Part shown: positions 3,986 through 50,192 of the stretch, piece by piece | How positions within the stretch are numbered: the first letter of the stretch is position 1 | How the letters are laid out: every line of letters starts with the position of its first letter | Virus record (IMG/VR): IMGVR_UViG_3300028833_000110 | Location: 31,832-95,831 of that record | Reading direction: 5' to 3' (one strand) | Origin: a virus | Lineage: Duplodnaviria; Caudoviricetes | DNA length: 64,000 nucleotides | Program-made: the position numbers and the translations under genes | Notes under the pieces: model-generated | What the model saw: only the letters and a program-made list of their open reading frames with translations | The model's database searches: none | What the model was told of the DNA's origin: nothing

Positions 3986-4059
3986 CGCGGGGTGGACAGG
4001 AGAGGCTCCTGCTCGGTCTCATAAGCCGAATGACGCTGGTTCGAATCCAGCCCCCGCTA
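3986..4059 (+). tRNA. tRNA-Met(CAT), initiator-like
   Basis: CGCGGGG/CCCCGCT acceptor with C1:T72 mismatch; anticodon arm TCGGT-CTCATAA-GCCGA; GGTTCGAATCC T arm; no encoded CCA. Confidence 0.9.
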
Positions 4060-4076
4060 CTAATAAAATAACAAAT

Positions 4077-4292
4077 ATGAAAAAATTGTTATTAATTTTA
4101 ACGTTATTCGTTTGTTGTGGATGTAGTAGTAATACAGAACAACAGCAGAGTGAAAAAGTAATTGACATTTCCAACGACCAGCGGTTTGAGGTTGTCAGAA
4201 TAGGCAATCATCAATATATCTTATATCGAACTGGATATAAGGGTGGAATATGTCACTATCAAGACTGTGATTATTGTCATGGTCGACGTTAA
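4077..4292 (+). CDS. Small putative lipoprotein
   Basis: MKKLLLILTLFVCCGC signal/lipobox-like N-terminus; C-terminal GGICH..DC..C. Confidence 0.7.
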   Translation: MKKLLLILTLFVCCGCSSNTEQQQSEKVIDISNDQRFEVVRIGNHQYILYRTGYKGGICHYQDCDYCHGRR

Positions 4293-4368
4293 AAAAAGTG
4301 CATCCCTCATCAATAGGGAAGGCAATCGAGGGTCCTATAGGCAAGATCTTATGGGTCCCTTGCTATTC

Positions 4369-4453
4369 GGAAAGATGGCAGAGCGGTTGAATGCGGCGCT
4401 CTTGAAAAGCGTTGACCTGCGAGGGTCCGGGGGTTCGAATCCCTCTCTTTCCG
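4369..4453 (+). tRNA. tRNA-Ser(TGA)
   Basis: GGAAAGA/TCTTTCC acceptor, loop CTTGAAA, long variable arm, G73. Confidence 0.9.
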
Positions 4454-4464
4454 CAAATATAAAT

Positions 4465-4538
4465 TGTTCTGTAGGCCAGTTGGATAGACCGTCAGATTTT
4501 GGTTCTGAATGTCGCTGGTTCGAGTCCAGCCAGAACAA
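4465..4538 (+). tRNA. tRNA-Gln(TTG)
   Basis: TGTTCTG/CAGAACA acceptor; TCAGA-TTTTGGT-TCTGA anticodon arm. Confidence 0.9.
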
Positions 4539-4545
4539 CAACTAT

Positions 4546-4628
4546 GACTATGTGCGCGAGTGGCTGAAACGGGCGGTCTGCAAAACCGTTAGGGAAACCT
4601 CACGTTGGTTCGAATCCAACCATAGTCA
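4546..4628 (+). tRNA. tRNA with Cys (GCA) anticodon on a class II (Tyr-like) body
   Basis: GACTATG/CATAGTC acceptor, GCGGT-CTGCAAA-ACCGT, variable arm AGG-GAAA-CCT, A73. Confidence 0.8.
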
Positions 4629-4637
4629 CAGAAAGTT

Positions 4638-4763
4638 GGTGGCGTGAAGCAGATAGGATGTGCTACCAGAAGAATTAGTAGTCGTTTGAAGGTTGCTTGA
4701 GGATAAGTTTCAACCAAGACGAAAAGGATCTGGACTACGGTAGTTCGAATCTACCCACCACCA
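4638..4763 (+). ncRNA. tRNA-like RNA with a ~58-nt structured insert replacing the anticodon loop
   Basis: Acceptor GGTGGCG/CACCACC-A, D stem AGCA/TGCT, stem CCAGA/TCTGG, T arm GGTAG-TTCGAAT-CTACC. Confidence 0.7.
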
Positions 4764-4773
4764 CAACAATTAT

Positions 4774-4847
4774 CGGGTATTAGCGAAGTTGGTATCGCGC
4801 TTGGTTTGGGACCAAGAGATCGCAGGTTCGAGTCTCTGCATACCCGA
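4774..4847 (+). tRNA. tRNA-Pro(TGG)
   Basis: CGGGTAT/ATACCCG acceptor; CTTGG-TTTGGGA-CCAAG; one extra base in T stem. Confidence 0.85.
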
Positions 4848-4955
4848 CAATCTTCAACAAATCATGTTTTTTGTTTTAATAAATCCTTTCATACTTTGGT
4901 CATAATTTGTTTGTATTTGGAAGGTTATTAAAGCATATGTACATTGTTTTCTTCA

Positions 4956-4995
4956 GACACTGGGATAGTCTTCGGGCTATTCTGGTGTTTTTTTT
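4956..4995 (+). terminator. Intrinsic terminator after tRNA cluster
   Basis: GACACTGGGATAGTC-TTCG-GGCTATTCTGGTGTT plus T run. Confidence 0.75.
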
Positions 4996-5304
4996 ACCGT
5001 CTCAAAAACCCTTTAAAACTTTATATATGACATAGTTTTCAAGAAACCGGCCCACACACCTAAACACTTGATAGCCCTGAGGTGTAGAAACCTGAGTAAA
5101 AAGGAGGGCCGGTTTATTTTTTTTTCGTTCTAAAAGCATATTAAATCTCTATATATAGAGATTCATTCATTATTTGGGTTTTTATGTTAATAATGAAAAG
5201 CGTCGTGATGACGCTTTTTTTATTATTTTTCTCTTCTAAACCCCTAAAATCCTTATATATGAAATAAAAAAAAATCATAACACAAATAGAAAAACTGATG
5301 AGAT

Positions 5305-5379
5305 GGTCCGTTCGTCTAGTTGGCCTAGGACGTAAGATTTTCATTCTTAAAATCGCGGGTTCGAATCCCGCACGGACTA
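5305..5379 (+). tRNA. tRNA-Glu(TTC)
   Basis: GGTCCGT/ACGGACT acceptor; TAAGA-TTTTCAT-TCTTA. Confidence 0.9.
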
Positions 5380-5383
5380 CAAC

Positions 5384-5455
5384 GCTTTGGTAGCTCAAAG
5401 GCAGAGCGATTGACTGTTAATCAATAGGTTGGGATATCGTAATTCCCCCAAAGCG
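5384..5455 (+). tRNA. tRNA-Asn(GTT), atypical T loop
   Basis: GCTTTGG/CCAAAGC acceptor; ATTGA-CTGTTAA-TCAAT; T loop ATCGTAA. Confidence 0.8.
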
Positions 5456-21343: not shown

Positions 21344-23537
21344 TTAGAACAGATTATTTAACATGCCCTGGAATATTTTTTGGGTTTCTTCTAGGGCGGA
21401 TGATGTTTGAGAGGAGAATGATTGAATAGTTTTGCTTACTCCACCATTCATTCCTAGTTCTTGATATTTAGAATAGTGATAGTAGCAATTGAAGAGAGCA
21501 CCAGAAACAGCATCAGCAAGGTCTTTACTCCCCTCTAGCTTATTCCCTTCCATTCCCGCATGATCAAACTCATAACAACTTGAAACTAAGGGGTGATCTA
21601 TTTTACAATGCTCTCCGTTAACTCCATTATAAGTCACTAATAGCTCACTACATTCTCGTAAAAGTATGTTGATATAAGGAAGCTCTAATCTTTCTGAATT
21701 TACTATATTCTTAAAGACGTTATAAGCCTCCATAGTTTTATCTACGGAAAGGGGTCTGTAGGGAATTCCATCTCTTTCAGCATTTTGTAAGATTCCGGCA
21801 CTAGCAAAAGAGTCAGCACTAAACTCGACGATATATCCATTTTTCACTAAGTCTTGTAAAAATTGATAGAGGTGGTCTAGTGATGTAGCCTGTCCCTTCT
21901 TTCTGGAAACAACAAATGCTAATGGAACTTTGAATTTGGGAAGTGTATATTCTCCTACTTGTTTTTCCCCATCATAATAACATAAAGCTATCCCAGTTTT
22001 ATCCTTCTTCAATCCTATATCATAATGTACATATAGTGAAGTGCCTCGTGGAATTCTGTAGATCATATTTTCGACATGAGAATATATACTATCTTCCTTA
22101 TCATAAAAATCGACTATAATTTCCTCGGGACTGTAATTCTTTAGGGTTGAGCAGTTTATGAGATGAGATATATTACCGTTGAAGAATCTCTCATCGCCGC
22201 TATAAGATACTCCCGCTAAGTCTCTAAGATTTCGGATTGGGTCGGCCAGGAATTTAAATTTGGCAGAGATGGGAACATTAATCACTCTGTCAGGATCTAA
22301 TCCAGATTTCTCCAGATCTTCGGAGTCTTCGATCACGCGGGGACCTGTAATATTATCTCCTTTATAGAACCTAAAAGTCTTACCATTAGACTCAAGGTAT
22401 AGTGGATCATAACGTATATCCCATTGTGCAAATCTACAGCGGTATAATTCCTCTGGGGGAACGAGAGATTCAAACTTAGTAACAGCAATATTATCCGGGT
22501 CCCTCGCTGAGCTGTCACAAACTACATGTCCATAAACAAATCTTTTATCAGCAAAACGAGAATCATAACGAGTCACAACTTCTGAAGCTCGAGCAGCCCC
22601 CTCCGAGGACCTCCAGAAGCCCAGCTCTGATAAACAGGCATATATCAAATTTCTTATTTTATAATAATTTTTTATTATATTAGACTATATCTTGTATTAA
22701 AACAGTATATACATAGTCTTTGAACTACTTTAAATTAAAGTAGCTGCTGATTTAATATATTAATTATTTCCAGCAATTCTTATACTATGAGCAAACTTTT
22801 TACTCCGATGACATGACTCCCGCTAGAAGGACCCGAGGGGATAAAACGAATGGGTGGTTTATGATAAGGACTTCTAAAATAAGGACTTGTATCAAACACT
22901 AAGTCAACATAATTTTTGAAGTCTCTTTTGGCAGTCTCGAAAGAATTGTGAAAGAAAGCCATTCCTAGTTTACTGTTCGCAATCCCAAGAGACTTAAATA
23001 CATTTGTACAGCAATCCAATCTATGGTAAGTATAGAGTGCTAGGATCTTACTGATAGTTGATTTTCCAAGTCCACAGTTTTATAATATTTCTATTATGAT
23101 AAGACTATATCTTCTTTCGTATATACACATAGTCGTTGAATAAGATACATAATTATCTTACTGCTAGTTTAAATCGGAATTTGTTTCTAGCAATTCTTAT
23201 ATAGGCCGCTGGACTTTCTGTTAACGGCACCCCCAAGAGAAATCCAGGGGTATTTTGTAGTAATTGAATTTGGATAAATCTTTTCTAATTCAGCATACCA
23301 TGGATCAAATAATGCTTTTCCATGATTAAATAAGTTATCATCTCCCATAAAATAATCATCACATATAAATCTTCTTATAGTCACTGGTTTATGATCCATC
23401 CCCAGTAATTTACACGCTGCTAATATTTTCTCCTCATTAGAAAGTTTATTATATTCAGATTCAAGTATGTTTTGGTTTATATCTGATGAAATAGAAAGAG
23501 TAGGATCATCACCTATATTTATATTACTGTTTTTCAT
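21344..23537 (-). CDS. terL: Terminase large subunit, 3 exons: 23224-23537, 22802-23074, 21344-22652 (631 aa spliced)
   Basis: Splicing restores Walker A GGAVGLGKST and HVIGVNLIYACLSE (Walker B-like); RNase H-like nuclease YVHYDIG..KD.TG, KIDHP, SKDLADAV. Confidence 0.85.
22653..22801 (-). ncRNA. Group I intron 2 in terL (149 nt)
   Basis: P AATTGCTGGAAA, Q AATCAGCAG, R GTTCAAAGACTA, S AAGATATAGTC; P1 GAGU/GCUC with U.G; terminal G; P10. Confidence 0.85.
23075..23223 (-). ncRNA. Group I intron 1 in terL (149 nt)
   Basis: P AATTGCTAGAAA, Q AAACTAGCAG, R TTCAACGACTA, S AAGATATAGTC; P1 GCCGU/GCGGC; P10 AGUCCA/UGGACU; terminal G. Confidence 0.85.
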
Positions 23538-24831
23538 ATTCTTCTACTTTTTTAGGTTCTATTATGGGAATGATGGAGCTAATGTCTTCCCCATATATCA
23601 ATATCTTTTGTATTATGTCGAAAATATCATTAAATTCTTTTATATTGTATGGTATAACGATTAATTTTATCGATTTCCTCTCACAATACTCTTTTATAGC
23701 ATCGTCTCGTAATAATTGTTTAGAATAGTCTTCAATAGACCTTTGAAAGTCGTGATCCCAGAAATAATGTTGAGATCCATTATATTCAATTATATAAGTA
23801 GATCCTTTATAGTTTTCTAAGTAAAAATCAACATAAACCCTTTTTTGAACATTAACTAATTCAAACATTTCCTCACTATCAATCCGAAACTGAGGTGTAT
23901 ATTCAATTCCTAAATTATCTAATACATGAGCTACATGTTTCTCTCCTCTAGACTTAACTCGATCGAAGTTAAATATGCCTCGTAATAAATTTCCTGCTGG
24001 TACAGAGTATTCCTTACCTGTTCTACGATCTATTACTATTACATTAGTATCTCTTCCAACACGACTATTGGATCTTAAATAAACCGCCTTTGATAAATCT
24101 ATTATATCTCCGTAAATTTCCCTAACCCTTTCTTCAAACTCTTCTTGCGATATAGCATTCTGTCTTCCTACGGATAATCTAGCACAATTTGGGCATTGTC
24201 CAGTTCCATAATAATGCTCTCCGGGCATCTGTTCAAAAAACTCTCCACAAGTAAGACACTGAAGACGTACTTTAGTATGATTATTAACATACTTTGTTTC
24301 ACTATATCCAAATCTACCTGGAAACTTCTCCTTTGATCTTCTTATGAATTCTTCAGTGTCTACATATTGTTCTGTTTTTTCTTTAGATAACATTCCCGCA
24401 CATTGCCTGTTTTCATCTAATACTACTACAAGATCATGATAACTTGTTTCCCACTCTCCTATTACTTTATTTGTTTTAGTAGATACCTCATCTACATAAA
24501 TAGGTACATTAGTCTTTTTGTTTCTTATAATATCTGGAACATTACTGAAGTCATAATTAAAAATTCTTTTATTCTCAATTTCCCTAGAGTTATAATATCC
24601 TTCTATAAAATCCTCTTTCAGGATTATACCTTTTCCAATAGACCATCTTAATCCATCTTCTTTTATGTGTTTGAGAACAAATTGTTTAGTATGTCTGTGT
24701 TTATCAGTGGCATTAGAAAACCACCTTAATCTCTTCTCTACTCTCTCCACACTAACTCCTAATTCTTTAGCTACACCTTCGACCGTGTACTTTTCTTCAA
24801 ATGGAAATTCTTCTCTTTTACCGTTTTGCAT
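23524..24831 (-). CDS. Free-standing homing-endonuclease-like protein (Zn-ribbon repeats plus Vsr/PD-(D/E)xK-like domain)
   Basis: C..CG..F....HY.G.GCP.C repeats; SRGE, YVDFYL, IIEYNG.QH, D..K..YC....I.LI.IPY. Confidence 0.75.
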   Translation of the reverse strand: MQNGKREEFPFEEKYTVEGVAKELGVSVERVEKRLRWFSNATDKHRHTKQFVLKHIKEDGLRWSIGKGIILKEDFIEGYYNSREIENKRIFNYDFSNVPDIIRNKKTNVPIYVDEVSTKTNKVIGEWETSYHDLVVVLDENRQCAGMLSKEKTEQYVDTEEFIRRSKEKFPGRFGYSETKYVNNHTKVRLQCLTCGEFFEQMPGEHYYGTGQCPNCARLSVGRQNAISQEEFEERVREIYGDIIDLSKAVYLRSNSRVGRDTNVIVIDRRTGKEYSVPAGNLLRGIFNFDRVKSRGEKHVAHVLDNLGIEYTPQFRIDSEEMFELVNVQKRVYVDFYLENYKGSTYIIEYNGSQHYFWDHDFQRSIEDYSKQLLRDDAIKEYCERKSIKLIVIPYNIKEFNDIFDIIQKILIYGEDISSIIPIIEPKKVEEYEKQ

Positions 24832-47579: not shown

Positions 47580-50192
47580 ATGAAGAACCTGAAAGACTTA
47601 AAATTGGCAAAGAATTTTTACAAGATCTTATCAGAGGCATCAAATGAAGCCGAAGTGATAAGTGTAGAGAGTATAATTTATTACTCAATTTTGTACTGTA
47701 TTAATGGGGGTGAAGAAGAGATGGCAGGATCAACCCTCACCTTTCATATGGTTAAGAACCTAACTCAACAAGAACAGAAACAACTTAAAGACTCACTGAG
47801 AGAACTATTGGATGAGGTTCTAATAAAGGAACTCCCTAGTGAATTAAGCTGTGATACTATCACCCCATTCAGTACTAATGCAACAACCATGTTCAAAGAA
47901 CTGGAGGAAAATAAGGAGGATGGAATATCTATCAGCTCATCACCTGAGATTGGAATAGATGATTTCATATTTCATCTTGTTTGTACGAGACGTGGAGATA
48001 TAGTAGAAGTTCTTAATAATTATGGTATTAATGATAGGTCCTACTTAAAAGCAACAGTGAATACTATACTTGATACTACAACTAATTCTGATAATAATAA
48101 TTTCTTGAACTACCTATCCCTTAGTGACTTAATTGATAAGTTAATAGATTATAGTGGTAATCCTGAATCTCCACAAAATAATAGTAAAGACGATGAAGAT
48201 TCTAAGCCTAAAGGAAACTATAGTTCTGAAAATTTCGAGAGAGCAGGAGAGATTCCAGATATTCACACTAAAAAAGTGGATCCATACTCGGAAACACCAA
48301 CTTTAGATGAATTTGGAATTAATATGACTGAGGAAGCGAGTAAAGGAGCTTATGACAAAGTTATAGGTAGGGATAAAGAGTTATCTCAATTAGTTGAAAT
48401 ACTCTTATGTAGGAAGAAAAACAATGCAATGGTTATAGGTAATGCTGGTACGGGAAAGACTGCATTAGTTGAAGGTTTGGCTCAACGAATTGCGGAAGGA
48501 TCTGTTCCCGACGGGTTGAAAGATAAAAAAATAATCAGTATTAGTAGTACAACCCTTACGGCTGGAACTATATATAGAGGTCAGCTTGAAGAGAGGGTCC
48601 AGAAATTATGTGCAGAAGTCGCAAAGAATAGAAACATCATAATATTTATTGATGAATTCCACTCTACCGTATCTGACAACAGTAATAATATTTCACAAAT
48701 GTTGAAACCTTCCTTATCTAGAGGAGAATTAACCCTCATAGCAGGAACAACATTAGATGAATACAAAAAATTTGTTGAAAAAGATTCTGCACTAAAAAGA
48801 AGGTTTCAAAAAGTACTATTGGAGGAACCATCTGGAGAAGATACCTTAATGATACTAAAAGGCGTCTGTGATAAATATTCAACCCACCATAATGTTATAT
48901 ATACTGAGGAAGCATTAAAGTTGTGCGTAAGTCTTTCTGAAAGATACTTATATGATAGAAATAGTCCGGATAGAGCTATTGATCTAATGGACATTTCTGG
49001 ATGTCATGCCAACTTAAATCATCCAACAAAGACTCCAACTAAATTAACAACACTAGAAAATAGGTTGGGAAGAATAAAGGAGAAAAAAAAGAAAGCTATA
49101 ATCAAAGAGGATTATGAAGAAGCTTTTAAATACAAAGAAGAACAAGAGAAAGTAGAAAAGCAAATTCATGACCTACCAACGAAAGGTAATTTTGTTACAG
49201 ATCTTGATATCGCCGAGGTAGTATCATCTTTGTCTAACGTACCAATAGATAAGATTCTTAATCCGGACATAGATAAGATCAGAAATATGGGTCCAAAATT
49301 AAAAAATATTATTATTGGACAAAACGAGGCAATTGATATAGTAACTAGTCTGTTGAGTAGACATTTCTTAGGACTATCTGACCCGAATATACCACCTAGT
49401 CTCTATATTTCTGGTGGAACCGGCACAGGTAAAACATATTTAGCTGAGGAAATTGCTGAAACTGTTTTTGGAAGTCGGAAATCACTAATAAGAATAGATT
49501 GCGGGGAACTAACCCAGCCTCATACAGTAACGAAATTAATAGGAGCTCCTCCTAGTTATGTTGGATTTGGTGAAATAGCCTTATTTGATGAAGTTCGAAC
49601 TAGGCCACATTCGCTAATCCTAGTAGATGAAGCAGATAAGTTATGTGAGGAAATATTAAATACAATCTTTTTAAACATACTCACTACTGGAACCATTAAA
49701 TTAAGTAATGGTATTGACGTAAGTTTTAAAGACTGCATTTTCATCTTCACTTCTAATGATGGTACACGTCAGCTAGAAGCTCATGGATCTGGAATAGGTT
49801 TCATAGATCAGAGCGGAGATAAATCCATCACAAAAGAAATCGTTCTCAAGGCCATAAAAGATCGTATAAGACCAGAAGTAATAAATAGATTTTCTGGAAT
49901 TATAGTATTTAATAACCTTGGAAGAGAGGAATTAAAGAAGATCTACGAACTCGAATTGAAAAAAGTTATCGAGAGAATCAAGGCAAAGGGAGGAATCAAC
50001 CTAAAAGTTAGTCCTGAAATAAGAGATGCTGTAGTGCAAGAACTAGATCTCACTTATGGAGCCAGAGATTTAAAACGAACTATAACAAAATGGGTTGAAG
50101 ATCCAATTTGTAATTTTATATTAAACAATCCCGATAAAAAACTGAAAAAATTGGAGGTTTTCTTAAAAGATGGAAAACCTGCAGTGAAATAA
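47580..50192 (+). CDS. clpC: Clp/Hsp100 ATPase, ClpC-like
   Basis: Two AAA modules (GNAGTGKT/FIDEFH; GGTGTGKT/LVDEADK), KLIGAPPSYVG, UVR-like EDYEEA, YGARDLKR. Confidence 0.9.
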   Translation: MKNLKDLKLAKNFYKILSEASNEAEVISVESIIYYSILYCINGGEEEMAGSTLTFHMVKNLTQQEQKQLKDSLRELLDEVLIKELPSELSCDTITPFSTNATTMFKELEENKEDGISISSSPEIGIDDFIFHLVCTRRGDIVEVLNNYGINDRSYLKATVNTILDTTTNSDNNNFLNYLSLSDLIDKLIDYSGNPESPQNNSKDDEDSKPKGNYSSENFERAGEIPDIHTKKVDPYSETPTLDEFGINMTEEASKGAYDKVIGRDKELSQLVEILLCRKKNNAMVIGNAGTGKTALVEGLAQRIAEGSVPDGLKDKKIISISSTTLTAGTIYRGQLEERVQKLCAEVAKNRNIIIFIDEFHSTVSDNSNNISQMLKPSLSRGELTLIAGTTLDEYKKFVEKDSALKRRFQKVLLEEPSGEDTLMILKGVCDKYSTHHNVIYTEEALKLCVSLSERYLYDRNSPDRAIDLMDISGCHANLNHPTKTPTKLTTLENRLGRIKEKKKKAIIKEDYEEAFKYKEEQEKVEKQIHDLPTKGNFVTDLDIAEVVSSLSNVPIDKILNPDIDKIRNMGPKLKNIIIGQNEAIDIVTSLLSRHFLGLSDPNIPPSLYISGGTGTGKTYLAEEIAETVFGSRKSLIRIDCGELTQPHTVTKLIGAPPSYVGFGEIALFDEVRTRPHSLILVDEADKLCEEILNTIFLNILTTGTIKLSNGIDVSFKDCIFIFTSNDGTRQLEAHGSGIGFIDQSGDKSITKEIVLKAIKDRIRPEVINRFSGIIVFNNLGREELKKIYELELKKVIERIKAKGGINLKVSPEIRDAVVQELDLTYGARDLKRTITKWVEDPICNFILNNPDKKLKKLEVFLKDGKPAVK

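What the first reader, a model, noticed from the sequence alone, without database searches (positions are those of the whole stretch)
22653..23223. Two ultra-compact 149-nt group I introns in the terminase ATPase motifs
Seen: both introns have P/Q/R/S core sequences, P1 with a U.G splice pair, P10 and a terminal G, and both are exactly 149 nt by my splice-site assignment. Removal restores Walker A (GGAV-GLGKST) and the strand before Walker B. P2 appears absent, P5 is a tiny hairpin and P8 is rudimentary. Known: the roughly 200-nt Azoarcus intron is the usual example of a small self-splicing group I intron, so these are much smaller. Inference: minimal ribozymes or protein-dependent introns that gate DNA packaging.
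Basis: partly seen in the sequence, partly recalled or inferred. Interest (0 to 1): 0.8.

Follow-up and report, generated by a model that had tools for sequence, protein, structure and literature searches.

The report
Two 149-nt introns in terminase
The DNA-packaging (large terminase) gene of this jumbo gut phage is interrupted by two genuine, very small (149-nt) group I introns, but such small introns were already reported in 2026 for related jumbo gut phages, so this is a small new example of a known thing.

Summary
On the minus strand, terL has three exons (23537-23224, 23074-22802, 22652-21344). They are split by two ORF-less 149-nt insertions. Removing them gives one 631-aa frame that lines up without gaps with intronless homologues at 72% and 69% identity.

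Both insertions match Rfam group I below the curated cut-off (39.6 and 32.7 bits against 50; E 1.8e-8 and 2.2e-6). Both have:
- P1 with a U.G pair, an adjacent P10 and a terminal G;
- P3-P7 and P9;
- no P2, a 4-bp P5 and a 1-2 bp P8.

Relatives show compensatory changes in P3, P4 and P6. A wolf-gut relative (96% identical) keeps both introns. Its exon changes are 61 synonymous to 11 non-synonymous, so the spliced frame is in use.

The novelty claim is overstated:
- Related 200-400 kb gut phages carry many such introns (140-274 nt by my script), including one at the same Walker A site.
- A 2026 paper reports 2,513 group I introns of about 206 nt in "Jug" phages, with terL split and splicing seen in RNA reads.
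- Fungal putative group I introns of 56-81 nt are also described.

Nothing supports "gating of packaging". Self-splicing without protein help is untested.

The parts
23224..23537 (-). terL exon 1 (codons 1-104 plus 2 nt of codon 105); it ends ...GGTGCCGT inside Walker A
   Evidence: The ORF and junction are. It is colinear with L001 and L002. Against wolf-gut L167, 9 differing codons are synonymous and 2 are non-synonymous.
23075..23223 (-). Intron 1, 149 nt, an ORF-less group I intron in phase 2 of the Val codon of GGAV|GLGKST. Elements: guide 23216-23205 (P10 part 23216-23210, P1 part 23209-23205); P3 23203-23198/23125-23120; P4 23193-23187/23167-23161; P5 23182-23171 (UCCG loop); P6 23160-23141; P7 23134-23129/23108-23103; P8 only C-GAAA-G, 23119-23114; P9 23097-23082 (GAAA loop); terminal G 23075
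   Evidence: RF00028 gives 32.7 bits, E 2.2e-6. Pairs were verified by script. The MFE fold recovers P4-P5, P6, P7 and P9. The intron is conserved in L167, with 3 changes: one at the J4/5-P5 edge, one in L6 and a 1-nt insertion after P7.
22802..23074 (-). terL exon 2 (273 nt; rest of Walker A to just before the Walker B strand); it has no start codon of its own in frame
   Evidence: All 7 differences from L167 are synonymous in the spliced frame only, and the other two frames contain stops.
22653..22801 (-). Intron 2, 149 nt, an ORF-less group I intron in phase 2 of the Val codon of IGV|NLIYACLSE. Elements: guide 22798-22789 (P10 part 22798-22793, P1 part 22792-22789); P3 22786-22781/22709-22704; P4 22776-22770/22750-22744; P5 22766-22753; P6 22743-22725; P7 22718-22713/22688-22683; P8 2 bp, 22703-22694; P9 22678-22661 (AAAA loop); terminal G 22653
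   Evidence: RF00028 gives 39.6 bits, E 1.8e-8. Pairs were verified by script. The fold z-score is -2.7. There is a single change in L167, in the P6 loop. GC content is 19.5%.
21344..22652 (-). terL exon 3 (Walker B strand, rest of the ATPase domain, and the nuclease domain)
   Evidence: tblastn finds annotated phage large terminases at about 25% identity, E down to 4e-30. The AlphaFold model of the intronless homologue L001 matches solved large terminases (D6E, HK97, Sf6, T4 gp17) with Foldseek E 3.6e-12, probability 1.00.
23524..24831 (-). Free-standing homing-endonuclease-like gene. It overlaps the terL start by 14 nt. It is a neighbour and possibly the mobility partner of the introns; it is not part of them.
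   Evidence: It matches phrog_559 'HNH endonuclease' at 2e-35, phrog_7140 'intron encoded nuclease' and phrog_9084 'homing endonuclease'. Homologues lie upstream of terL in some relatives. In L167 a different member of the family occupies the place.

Best explanation
These are two genuine, ORF-less, miniature group I introns in the large terminase gene (terL) of an uncultivated jumbo gut phage.

Each intron carries a guide sequence near its 5' end. The guide is the contiguous complement of the ligated exon junction: the P1 part pairs with the last 4-5 nt of the upstream exon, with U.G at the splice site, and the adjacent P10 part pairs with the first 6-7 nt of the downstream exon. Each intron also has the conserved P3-P7 catalytic core and a terminal G.

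The most likely mechanism is the standard group I pathway. Guanosine attacks the 5' splice site, and the freed exon then attacks the site after the terminal G. This joins three exons into one mRNA for a 631-aa TerL with intact Walker A and Walker B motifs.

The introns are selfish mobile elements lodged in the most conserved DNA of an essential gene. They belong to a large family of small group I introns that has spread through related 200-400 kb gut phages (the published 'Jug' phage situation). The window's copies are at the small end of that family because they lack P2 and have almost lost P8.

Shown: the intron anatomy, the junctions, covariation in the family, the existence of intronless alleles, and purifying selection on the spliced frame. 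Inferred: splicing in vivo, the chemistry, and mobility. Open: whether they splice without help from proteins.
For: Gene and junctions:
- Rfam group I matches with E 1.8e-8 and 2.2e-6, with all core elements aligned.
- The splice junctions give one ORF. It is colinear, without indels, with the uninterrupted terL of L001 and L002.
- TerL identity is confirmed by fold and by tblastn.

RNA structure:
- P1, P10 and all helices were verified base by base.
- Family covariation by RNAalifold: four P6 pairs show double changes in 10-16 of 24 sequences, and one P4 pair in 8.
- The count of structure pairs on the named P3/P4/P6/P7 structure: 89.4% of cells paired against 72.7% in shuffles (0 of 500 reach it), against 32-46% when partners are slid; all 4 scored P3 pairs and all 5 P6 pairs change on both sides.
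- Cross-sequence control: P6 6.8 against 2.9 bp.

Relatives:
- Near-identical terL alleles differ by presence or absence of an intron at the same Walker A site (171 nt) and at two nearby sites.
- More than 116 loci in related jumbo-phage contigs carry the same core.
- Wolf-gut relative L167 (96.4% identical) keeps both introns, with changes only in loops and junctions. Exon codon changes are 61 synonymous to 11 non-synonymous, and 7:0 in exon 2 in the spliced frame only.
- A change at +4 of exon 2 (A to G) keeps the P10 pair as G.U (my reading of the alignment).

Published precedent: 2,513 group I introns of about 206 nt in Jug phages, terL split into 2-3 pieces, and 37 of 76 predicted introns with RNA reads across the splice (PMC12880540).
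Against: - Splicing here is therefore inferred.
- The scores are below Rfam's gathering cut-off.
- The helices are very AU-rich (P3, P5 and P9 of intron 1 are all A-U; intron 2 has 19.5% GC). P8 is 1-2 bp, P2 is absent, and L9 of intron 2 is AAAA rather than GNRA. The usual peripheral tertiary braces are thus missing or weak, and autonomous folding is doubtful.
- The fold z-score of intron 1 is only -1.55.
- The window phage's TerL is only 38% identical to the clade that fits the published Jug description, so it may not itself be a Jug phage.
Confidence: 0.9

Rival explanations
1. Protein-dependent introns. The core is a real group I core but is too reduced and AU-rich to fold alone, so splicing in the cell needs an RNA chaperone or a phage- or host-encoded splicing factor. 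This refines the main explanation rather than replacing it.
For: There is no P2, P8 is 1-2 bp and P5 is 4 bp, several helices are all A-U, GC is 28% and 19.5%, and intron 2 has no GNRA loop in L9. MFE stability is modest. Many organellar group I introns need protein cofactors (stated in PMC2813881, abstract).
Against: Nothing was tested. The catalytic junctions J3/4, J4/5, J6/7 and J8/7 and helix P7 match the consensus closely. Intron 1 keeps a GAAA L9. No maturase-like ORF lies inside either intron. Comparable small introns in Jug phages are spliced in vivo, but that does not separate the two cases.
Confidence: 0.45
2. Regulatory gate. Splicing of the two introns is controlled so that functional TerL, and hence DNA packaging, appears only late in infection or under certain conditions.
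For: Only the position of the introns in an essential late gene.
Against: Closely related phages do without one or both introns: L001 and L002 have none, and the alleles in L004, L005, L006 and L025 differ. The same intron family sits in many unrelated genes of related phages. No regulatory element was seen. The distribution is that of selfish elements.
Confidence: 0.07
3. The introns are not removed: terL is a decaying pseudogene, or the three pieces are translated separately and assemble as a split protein.
For: Gene callers report the pieces as separate ORFs of 116, 79 and 434 aa.
Against: Exon 2 has no in-frame start at its 5' end, and the split would cut the P-loop itself. There is strong purifying selection in the spliced frame across all exons, with 7:0 synonymous in exon 2 in that frame only. 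The introns are more conserved than the exons (0.7-2.0% against 2.6-4.5% differences). The guides match the ligated junctions exactly.
Confidence: 0.03

Closest known systems
Small group I introns of 'Jug' jumbo gut phages (Sci Adv 2026, PMC12880540)
   Same: ORF-less small group I introns interrupt essential genes, including terL, which is split into 2-3 pieces. Stand-alone homing endonuclease genes are nearby. The hosts are animal or human gut phages of 360-402 kb. Splicing is supported by metatranscriptome reads. My relatives L003-L050 (200-400 kb contigs) fit that description. They carry a 171-nt intron at exactly the window's Walker A site and others 2 and about 10 codons away from the intron 2 site.
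   Different: The window's TerL is only 38% identical to that clade. Its introns are shorter (149 nt against a reported mean of about 206 nt). They are only 42-50% identical in the core to the terL introns of that clade, and closer (about 60%) to each other and to P8-poor copies in other genes. The paper does not dissect a P2-less, P8-less architecture in the text I could read; its tables are not held.
Azoarcus pre-tRNA-Ile group I intron (205 nt)
   Same: It is a bacterial-type, ORF-less, compact group I intron without the P5abc extension (PMC13168695). The core order P3-P4-P5-P6-P7-P8-P9 is the same. Intron 1 has a GAAA loop on P9.
   Different: Azoarcus keeps P2 and a full P8, which carry tetraloop-receptor braces, and it is GC-rich and thermostable (my background knowledge). 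The window's introns are 56 nt shorter, lack P2, have a 1-2 bp P8 and are 19-28% GC. Azoarcus is proven to self-splice; these are not.
Group I introns in terminase and other genes of cultivated phages (Lactobacillus phage LL-H terL, Staphylococcus Twort-like phages, T4 td/nrdB/sunY; from my background knowledge)
   Same: These are group I introns inserted in conserved motifs of essential phage genes. They are polymorphic among relatives and associated with homing endonucleases.
   Different: Those introns are typically 250-1000 nt and often carry the endonuclease ORF inside. Here the introns are ORF-less, and the endonuclease gene is free-standing upstream.
Putative minimal fungal rDNA group I introns (Phialophora PaSSU, 56-81 nt; PMC3160393)
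   Same: [quoted passage not shown]
   Different: Those retain only P1, P7 and P10 and lack the rest of the core. The window's introns keep a complete P3-P7 core plus P9.

Membership tests
Group I intron (Rfam RF00028) | Conserved core with paired P3, P4, P6 and P7 and consensus junctions (the classical P, Q, R and S elements) | tested here: met
   The covariance-model alignment shows P3, P4-P5, P6, J6/7-P7, P8, J8/7-P7' and P9 for both introns. The pairs were verified by script.
Group I intron (Rfam RF00028) | Rfam curated gathering score of 50 bits (an annotation criterion, not a structural feature) | tested here: not met
   The scores are 39.6 and 32.7 bits, with E 1.8e-8 and 2.2e-6 in a 901-nt search. 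Whole-window scans report nothing. The shortfall fits the missing P2 and the reduced P5 and P8: the model had to borrow exon sequence for its P1 and P2 positions.
Group I intron (Rfam RF00028) | 5' splice site after a U that forms a U.G pair in P1 with an internal guide sequence | tested here: met
   Intron 1: exon GCCGU pairs with guide GCGGC. Intron 2: exon GAGU pairs with guide GCUC. Both have U.G at the site.
Group I intron (Rfam RF00028) | P10 pairing of the guide with the 3' exon, and a terminal G | tested here: met
   P10 is 7 bp (UGGACUU with AAGUCCA) and 6 bp (AAAUUU with AAGUUU), immediately 5' of the P1 part of the guide. Both introns end in G.
Group I intron (Rfam RF00028) | Helices supported by compensatory change among homologues | tested here: met
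   with a cross-sequence control. P7 is invariant and so is uninformative.
Group I intron (Rfam RF00028) | Removal restores a colinear host gene; intronless alleles exist | tested here: met
   L001 and L002 are uninterrupted and colinear. There is presence or absence polymorphism at the same site in L004 against L005 and L006.
Group I intron (Rfam RF00028) | Guanosine-dependent self-splicing in vitro; spliced RNA in vivo | not testable with these tools
There is only indirect support from purifying selection on the spliced frame and from published RNA reads for Jug phage introns.
Jug-phage small group I intron population (PMC12880540) | Resides in a Jug phage genome (360-402 kb, Bacteroides/Phocaeicola phage clade) | tested here: inconclusive
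   The record is 95.8 kb at an estimated 24% completeness, which implies about 400 kb. TerL is 38% identical to the 200-400 kb clade that fits the Jug description. The Jug genomes themselves were not available for comparison, and L005 and L027 are not held.
Jug-phage small group I intron population (PMC12880540) | Same intron sequence family | tested here: met
   The core pattern is shared, with more than 116 loci in those contigs. The introns align with invariant P4, J6/7-P7 and J8/7-P7'. A family profile finds both window introns at E 2e-14 and 9e-14; both were among the 13 sequences the profile was built from, so those two matches are partly by construction.
Large terminase subunit (TerL) | ATPase plus nuclease two-domain fold with Walker A and Walker B | tested here: met
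   The AlphaFold model of the intronless homologue L001 has pLDDT 82. The top Foldseek hits are large terminases at E 3.6e-12. G104, G107, G109, K110, S111 and E207 are invariant in the family alignment. The local Pfam and PHROGs libraries give no hit.

The most novel reading that the evidence does not exclude
The 140-150 nt members of this family (the two window introns and relatives such as L138) are autonomous self-splicing ribozymes. That would make them the smallest natural group I introns that still have a complete P3-P7 core. It would also show that both P2 and P8, and the tetraloop-receptor braces they carry, are dispensable in nature.
Probability: 0.35. Interest if true: 0.6.

Novelty: new member of a known kind. 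Interest (0 to 1): 0.4.

Why it matters
For annotation: the default Rfam thresholds miss these introns, and gene callers then split TerL into three 'hypothetical' ORFs. TerL-based phylogenies and completeness estimates for jumbo gut phages are affected as a result.

For RNA biology: if the 140-150 nt, P2-less and nearly P8-less members splice on their own, they would give a smaller natural group I scaffold than Azoarcus for folding and structural work. If they do not, they point to an unknown splicing helper in Bacteroidota phages or their hosts.

For evolution: several small introns land within about 10 codons of each other in the P-loop and Walker B DNA, next to swapping free-standing endonuclease genes. 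This makes a good natural system for studying intron homing in uncultivated phages.

Tried and rejected
- Rfam at gathering threshold, and at E-value threshold over the whole 64-kb window, found no intron; only the 901-nt search did.
- blastn of the region against GenBank phages found no match.
- Pfam and PHROGs on the three exons and on the intact homologue gave no terminase hit.
- phmmer and a profile search against PDB sequences gave nothing useful. Structure prediction plus Foldseek was needed.
- RNAalifold on the MAFFT alignment of whole introns recovered only P4 and P7, because the variable hairpins were misaligned. I therefore used a sub-region alignment and a named structure, and built no covariance model.
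- The first version of my splice-site predictor (120-nt exon windows) mis-ranked intron 2 and failed where exons are short. The tightened version still left 85 of 117 cores unassigned, so the 140-274 nt range is a partial picture. Some assignments, such as L133 at 155 nt, look doubtful.
- An nhmmer profile and a loose regex on the whole 95.8-kb record found no further copy.
- A clean association between an upstream endonuclease gene and intron presence was not found. The intronless L001 and L002 also have an endonuclease-like gene upstream, and some three-intron alleles have none.
- Literature phrase searches for 'smallest group I intron' were unproductive.
- The supplementary tables of the Jug paper are not held.
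- A comparison of other window genes with the Jug-like records was not possible, because those records are not held.

Full report
WHAT IS THERE. The feature lies on the minus strand. Three ORF pieces (23537..23187, 23019..22780 and 22648..21344 as listed) belong to one gene. Both introns are 149 nt. The joined exons give one 631-aa frame containing GGAVGLGKST and NLIYACLSE.

THE GENE IS terL. The local Pfam and PHROGs libraries do not recognise the exons or an intact homologue. Three other lines identify the gene:
- tblastn of exon 3 finds annotated phage large terminases at about 25% identity, E down to 4e-30.
- An AlphaFold model of the uninterrupted homologue L001, built on an 18-sequence alignment, has mean pLDDT 82.
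- Its top Foldseek matches are the large terminases of D6E, HK97, Sf6 and T4 gp17, at E 3.6e-12 and probability 1.00.
In that family G104, G107, G109, K110 and S111 (Walker A) and E207 are invariant, and S206 is nearly so. E207 ends the strand at residues 199-206. Intron 1 therefore cuts the P-loop codon for V in GGAV|GLGKST. Intron 2 cuts the codon that opens the Walker B strand.

THE JUNCTIONS ARE RIGHT.
- The two closest relatives in IMG/VR, L001 and L002 (72% and 69% amino-acid identity), carry terL as one uninterrupted frame. The spliced window protein aligns to them over residues 4-631 with no indel at either junction.
- Each intron's 5' region holds a guide that is the contiguous complement of the ligated junction. 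In intron 1, AAGUCCA pairs with the 3' exon UGGACUU (P10, 7 bp), followed directly by GCGGC pairing with the 5' exon GCCGU (P1, 5 bp, U.G at the site). In intron 2, AAGUUU pairs with AAAUUU (6 bp), followed by GCUC pairing with GAGU (4 bp).
- A 1-nt shift of either intron would give the same mRNA. The rule of a U before the 5' site and a G at the intron end selects the stated sites.

THEY ARE GROUP I INTRONS.
- In a 901-nt search, Rfam RF00028 aligns both over the full model, at 39.6 bits (E 1.8e-8) and 32.7 bits (E 2.2e-6). Consensus J3/4-P4, J4/5, P6, J6/7-P7, J8/7-P7' and P9 are all present.
- The scores are under the 50-bit gathering cut-off, and whole-window scans miss both introns.
- Base-by-base checking gives, for intron 1 / intron 2: P3 6 / 6, P4 7 / 7, P5 4 / 4, P6 7 / 8, P7 6 / 6, P8 1 / 2 and P9 6 / 7 bp. 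There is no P2 and no ORF.
- Thermodynamic folding alone recovers P4-P5, P6, P7 and P9.

FAMILY AND COVARIATION. Almost all lie in 200-400 kb contigs from a few samples, often with several copies per locus. That gives 117 distinct copies. The structure tests were:
- RNAalifold on 24 P4-P6 domains shows double-sided changes in 10-16 sequences at four P6 pairs, and in 8 at one P4 pair.
- For a named P3/P4/P6/P7 structure on 13 whole introns, 89.4% of cells pair, against 72.7% in shuffles (0 of 500 reach it) and 32-46% when partners are slid. All 4 scored P3 pairs and all 5 P6 pairs change on both sides; P7 never varies.
- A cross-sequence control gave P6 6.8 against 2.9 bp, and P3 of at least 5 bp in 95% against 31%.

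MOBILITY PATTERN. In the clade at 38% identity, near-identical terL alleles differ only by insertions:
- a 171-nt intron at exactly the window's Walker A position (phase 2 of the I/V codon before G-x-GKS);
- a 211- or 192-nt intron of another type about 10 codons before the window's second site;
- a 184-nt intron 2 codons after the window's second site.
Alleles carry one, two or three of these. The window's two introns are about 60% identical to each other in the core. That is closer than either is to those terL introns (42-50%), and as close as to P8-poor copies in other genes. The rest of the 95.8-kb record holds no further copy.

EVIDENCE THAT THE SPLIT GENE WORKS. A wolf-gut metagenome contig (L167) is 96.4% identical over terL and has both introns.
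- Intron 1 shows three changes: one at the J4/5-P5 edge, one in the P6 loop, and a 1-nt insertion after P7 that makes it 150 nt. Intron 2 shows one change, in the P6 loop.
- The introns differ by 2.0% and 0.7%, the exons by 2.6-4.5%.
- Exon codon changes are 61 synonymous to 11 non-synonymous. In exon 2, all 7 are synonymous in the spliced frame and none in the other two frames, which contain stops.
- An A-to-G change at +4 of exon 2 keeps the P10 pair as G.U (my reading of the alignment).

COMPARISON WITH WHAT IS KNOWN.
- My 200-400 kb relatives fit that description. That they are Jug phages is an inference.
- Azoarcus is described as a compact 205-nt intron (PMC13168695).
- Putative fungal group I introns of 56-81 nt, retaining only P1, P7 and P10, are published (PMC3160393).
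- Within the family here, my P1/P10-plus-ORF script assigns lengths of 140-274 nt to the 32 copies it could resolve. These include a 140-nt candidate in a polymerase-like gene (L138). Of 117 distinct cores, 14 have a P7-P7' spacing of 23 nt or less, which means a rudimentary P8.
So the window's introns are small members of a published population, not a new kind.

WHAT REMAINS OPEN. It is untested whether introns this reduced and AU-rich fold and splice alone. They have 28% and 19.5% GC, P3, P5 and P9 of intron 1 are all A-U, and intron 2 has no GNRA loop on P9. The 'gating of packaging' idea has no support: relatives dispense with the introns, and the family sits in many genes.

The free-standing endonuclease gene that overlaps the terL start may drive collaborative homing. 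However, endonuclease-like genes also precede the intronless terL of L001 and L002, some three-intron alleles have none, and L167 carries a different family member at that place.

VERDICT. These are new members of a known kind, of moderate interest.

Noticed in passing
window 23524-24831 (-); L167:747-2114: The free-standing homing-endonuclease-like gene overlapping the terL start is replaced in the 96%-identical wolf-gut relative by a different 455-aa member of the same family. The two share no DNA similarity but have the same C-terminal nuclease motif. Partial homologues also sit upstream of the intronless terL of L001 and L002. A paralogue lies at G000:C1:12400-13431, outside the window.
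   Followed up: partly
window 22625-22648 (-); alignment A2 positions 199-207: The Walker B strand of this TerL family ends in S-E (LIYACLSE, LVFSTISE, LIFAIMSE), not the usual D-E. S206 is nearly invariant and E207 invariant across 18 homologues.
   Followed up: partly
L025:3601-4000: Some relatives have three terL introns. Two of them (192 nt and 184 nt) are separated by an exon of only 24 nt. The 192/211-nt intron belongs to a different sequence type from the window's introns.
   Followed up: partly
L138:4754-4893 (-): A 140-nt candidate member of the same intron family interrupts a polymerase-like gene at ...IIVVHDS|NTNYVP. P1 and P10 are 5 bp each and P8 is almost absent. It is smaller than the window's introns.
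   Followed up: partly
window 3986-5455 (+): A cluster of seven tRNA genes by Rfam.
   Followed up: no
one search hit list: Many database homologues of this TerL are 414-440 aa or 488-532 aa instead of about 630 aa. Those are the sizes expected for ORFs cut at the Walker B or Walker A intron sites, so intron-split terL alleles seem common in the wider family. Full-length members carry PF27249, which the local Pfam copy did not report for L001.
   Followed up: no
window 47580-50192 (+): An 870-aa ORF matches phrog_4871 'ATP-dependent protease' at E 3e-167.
   Followed up: no
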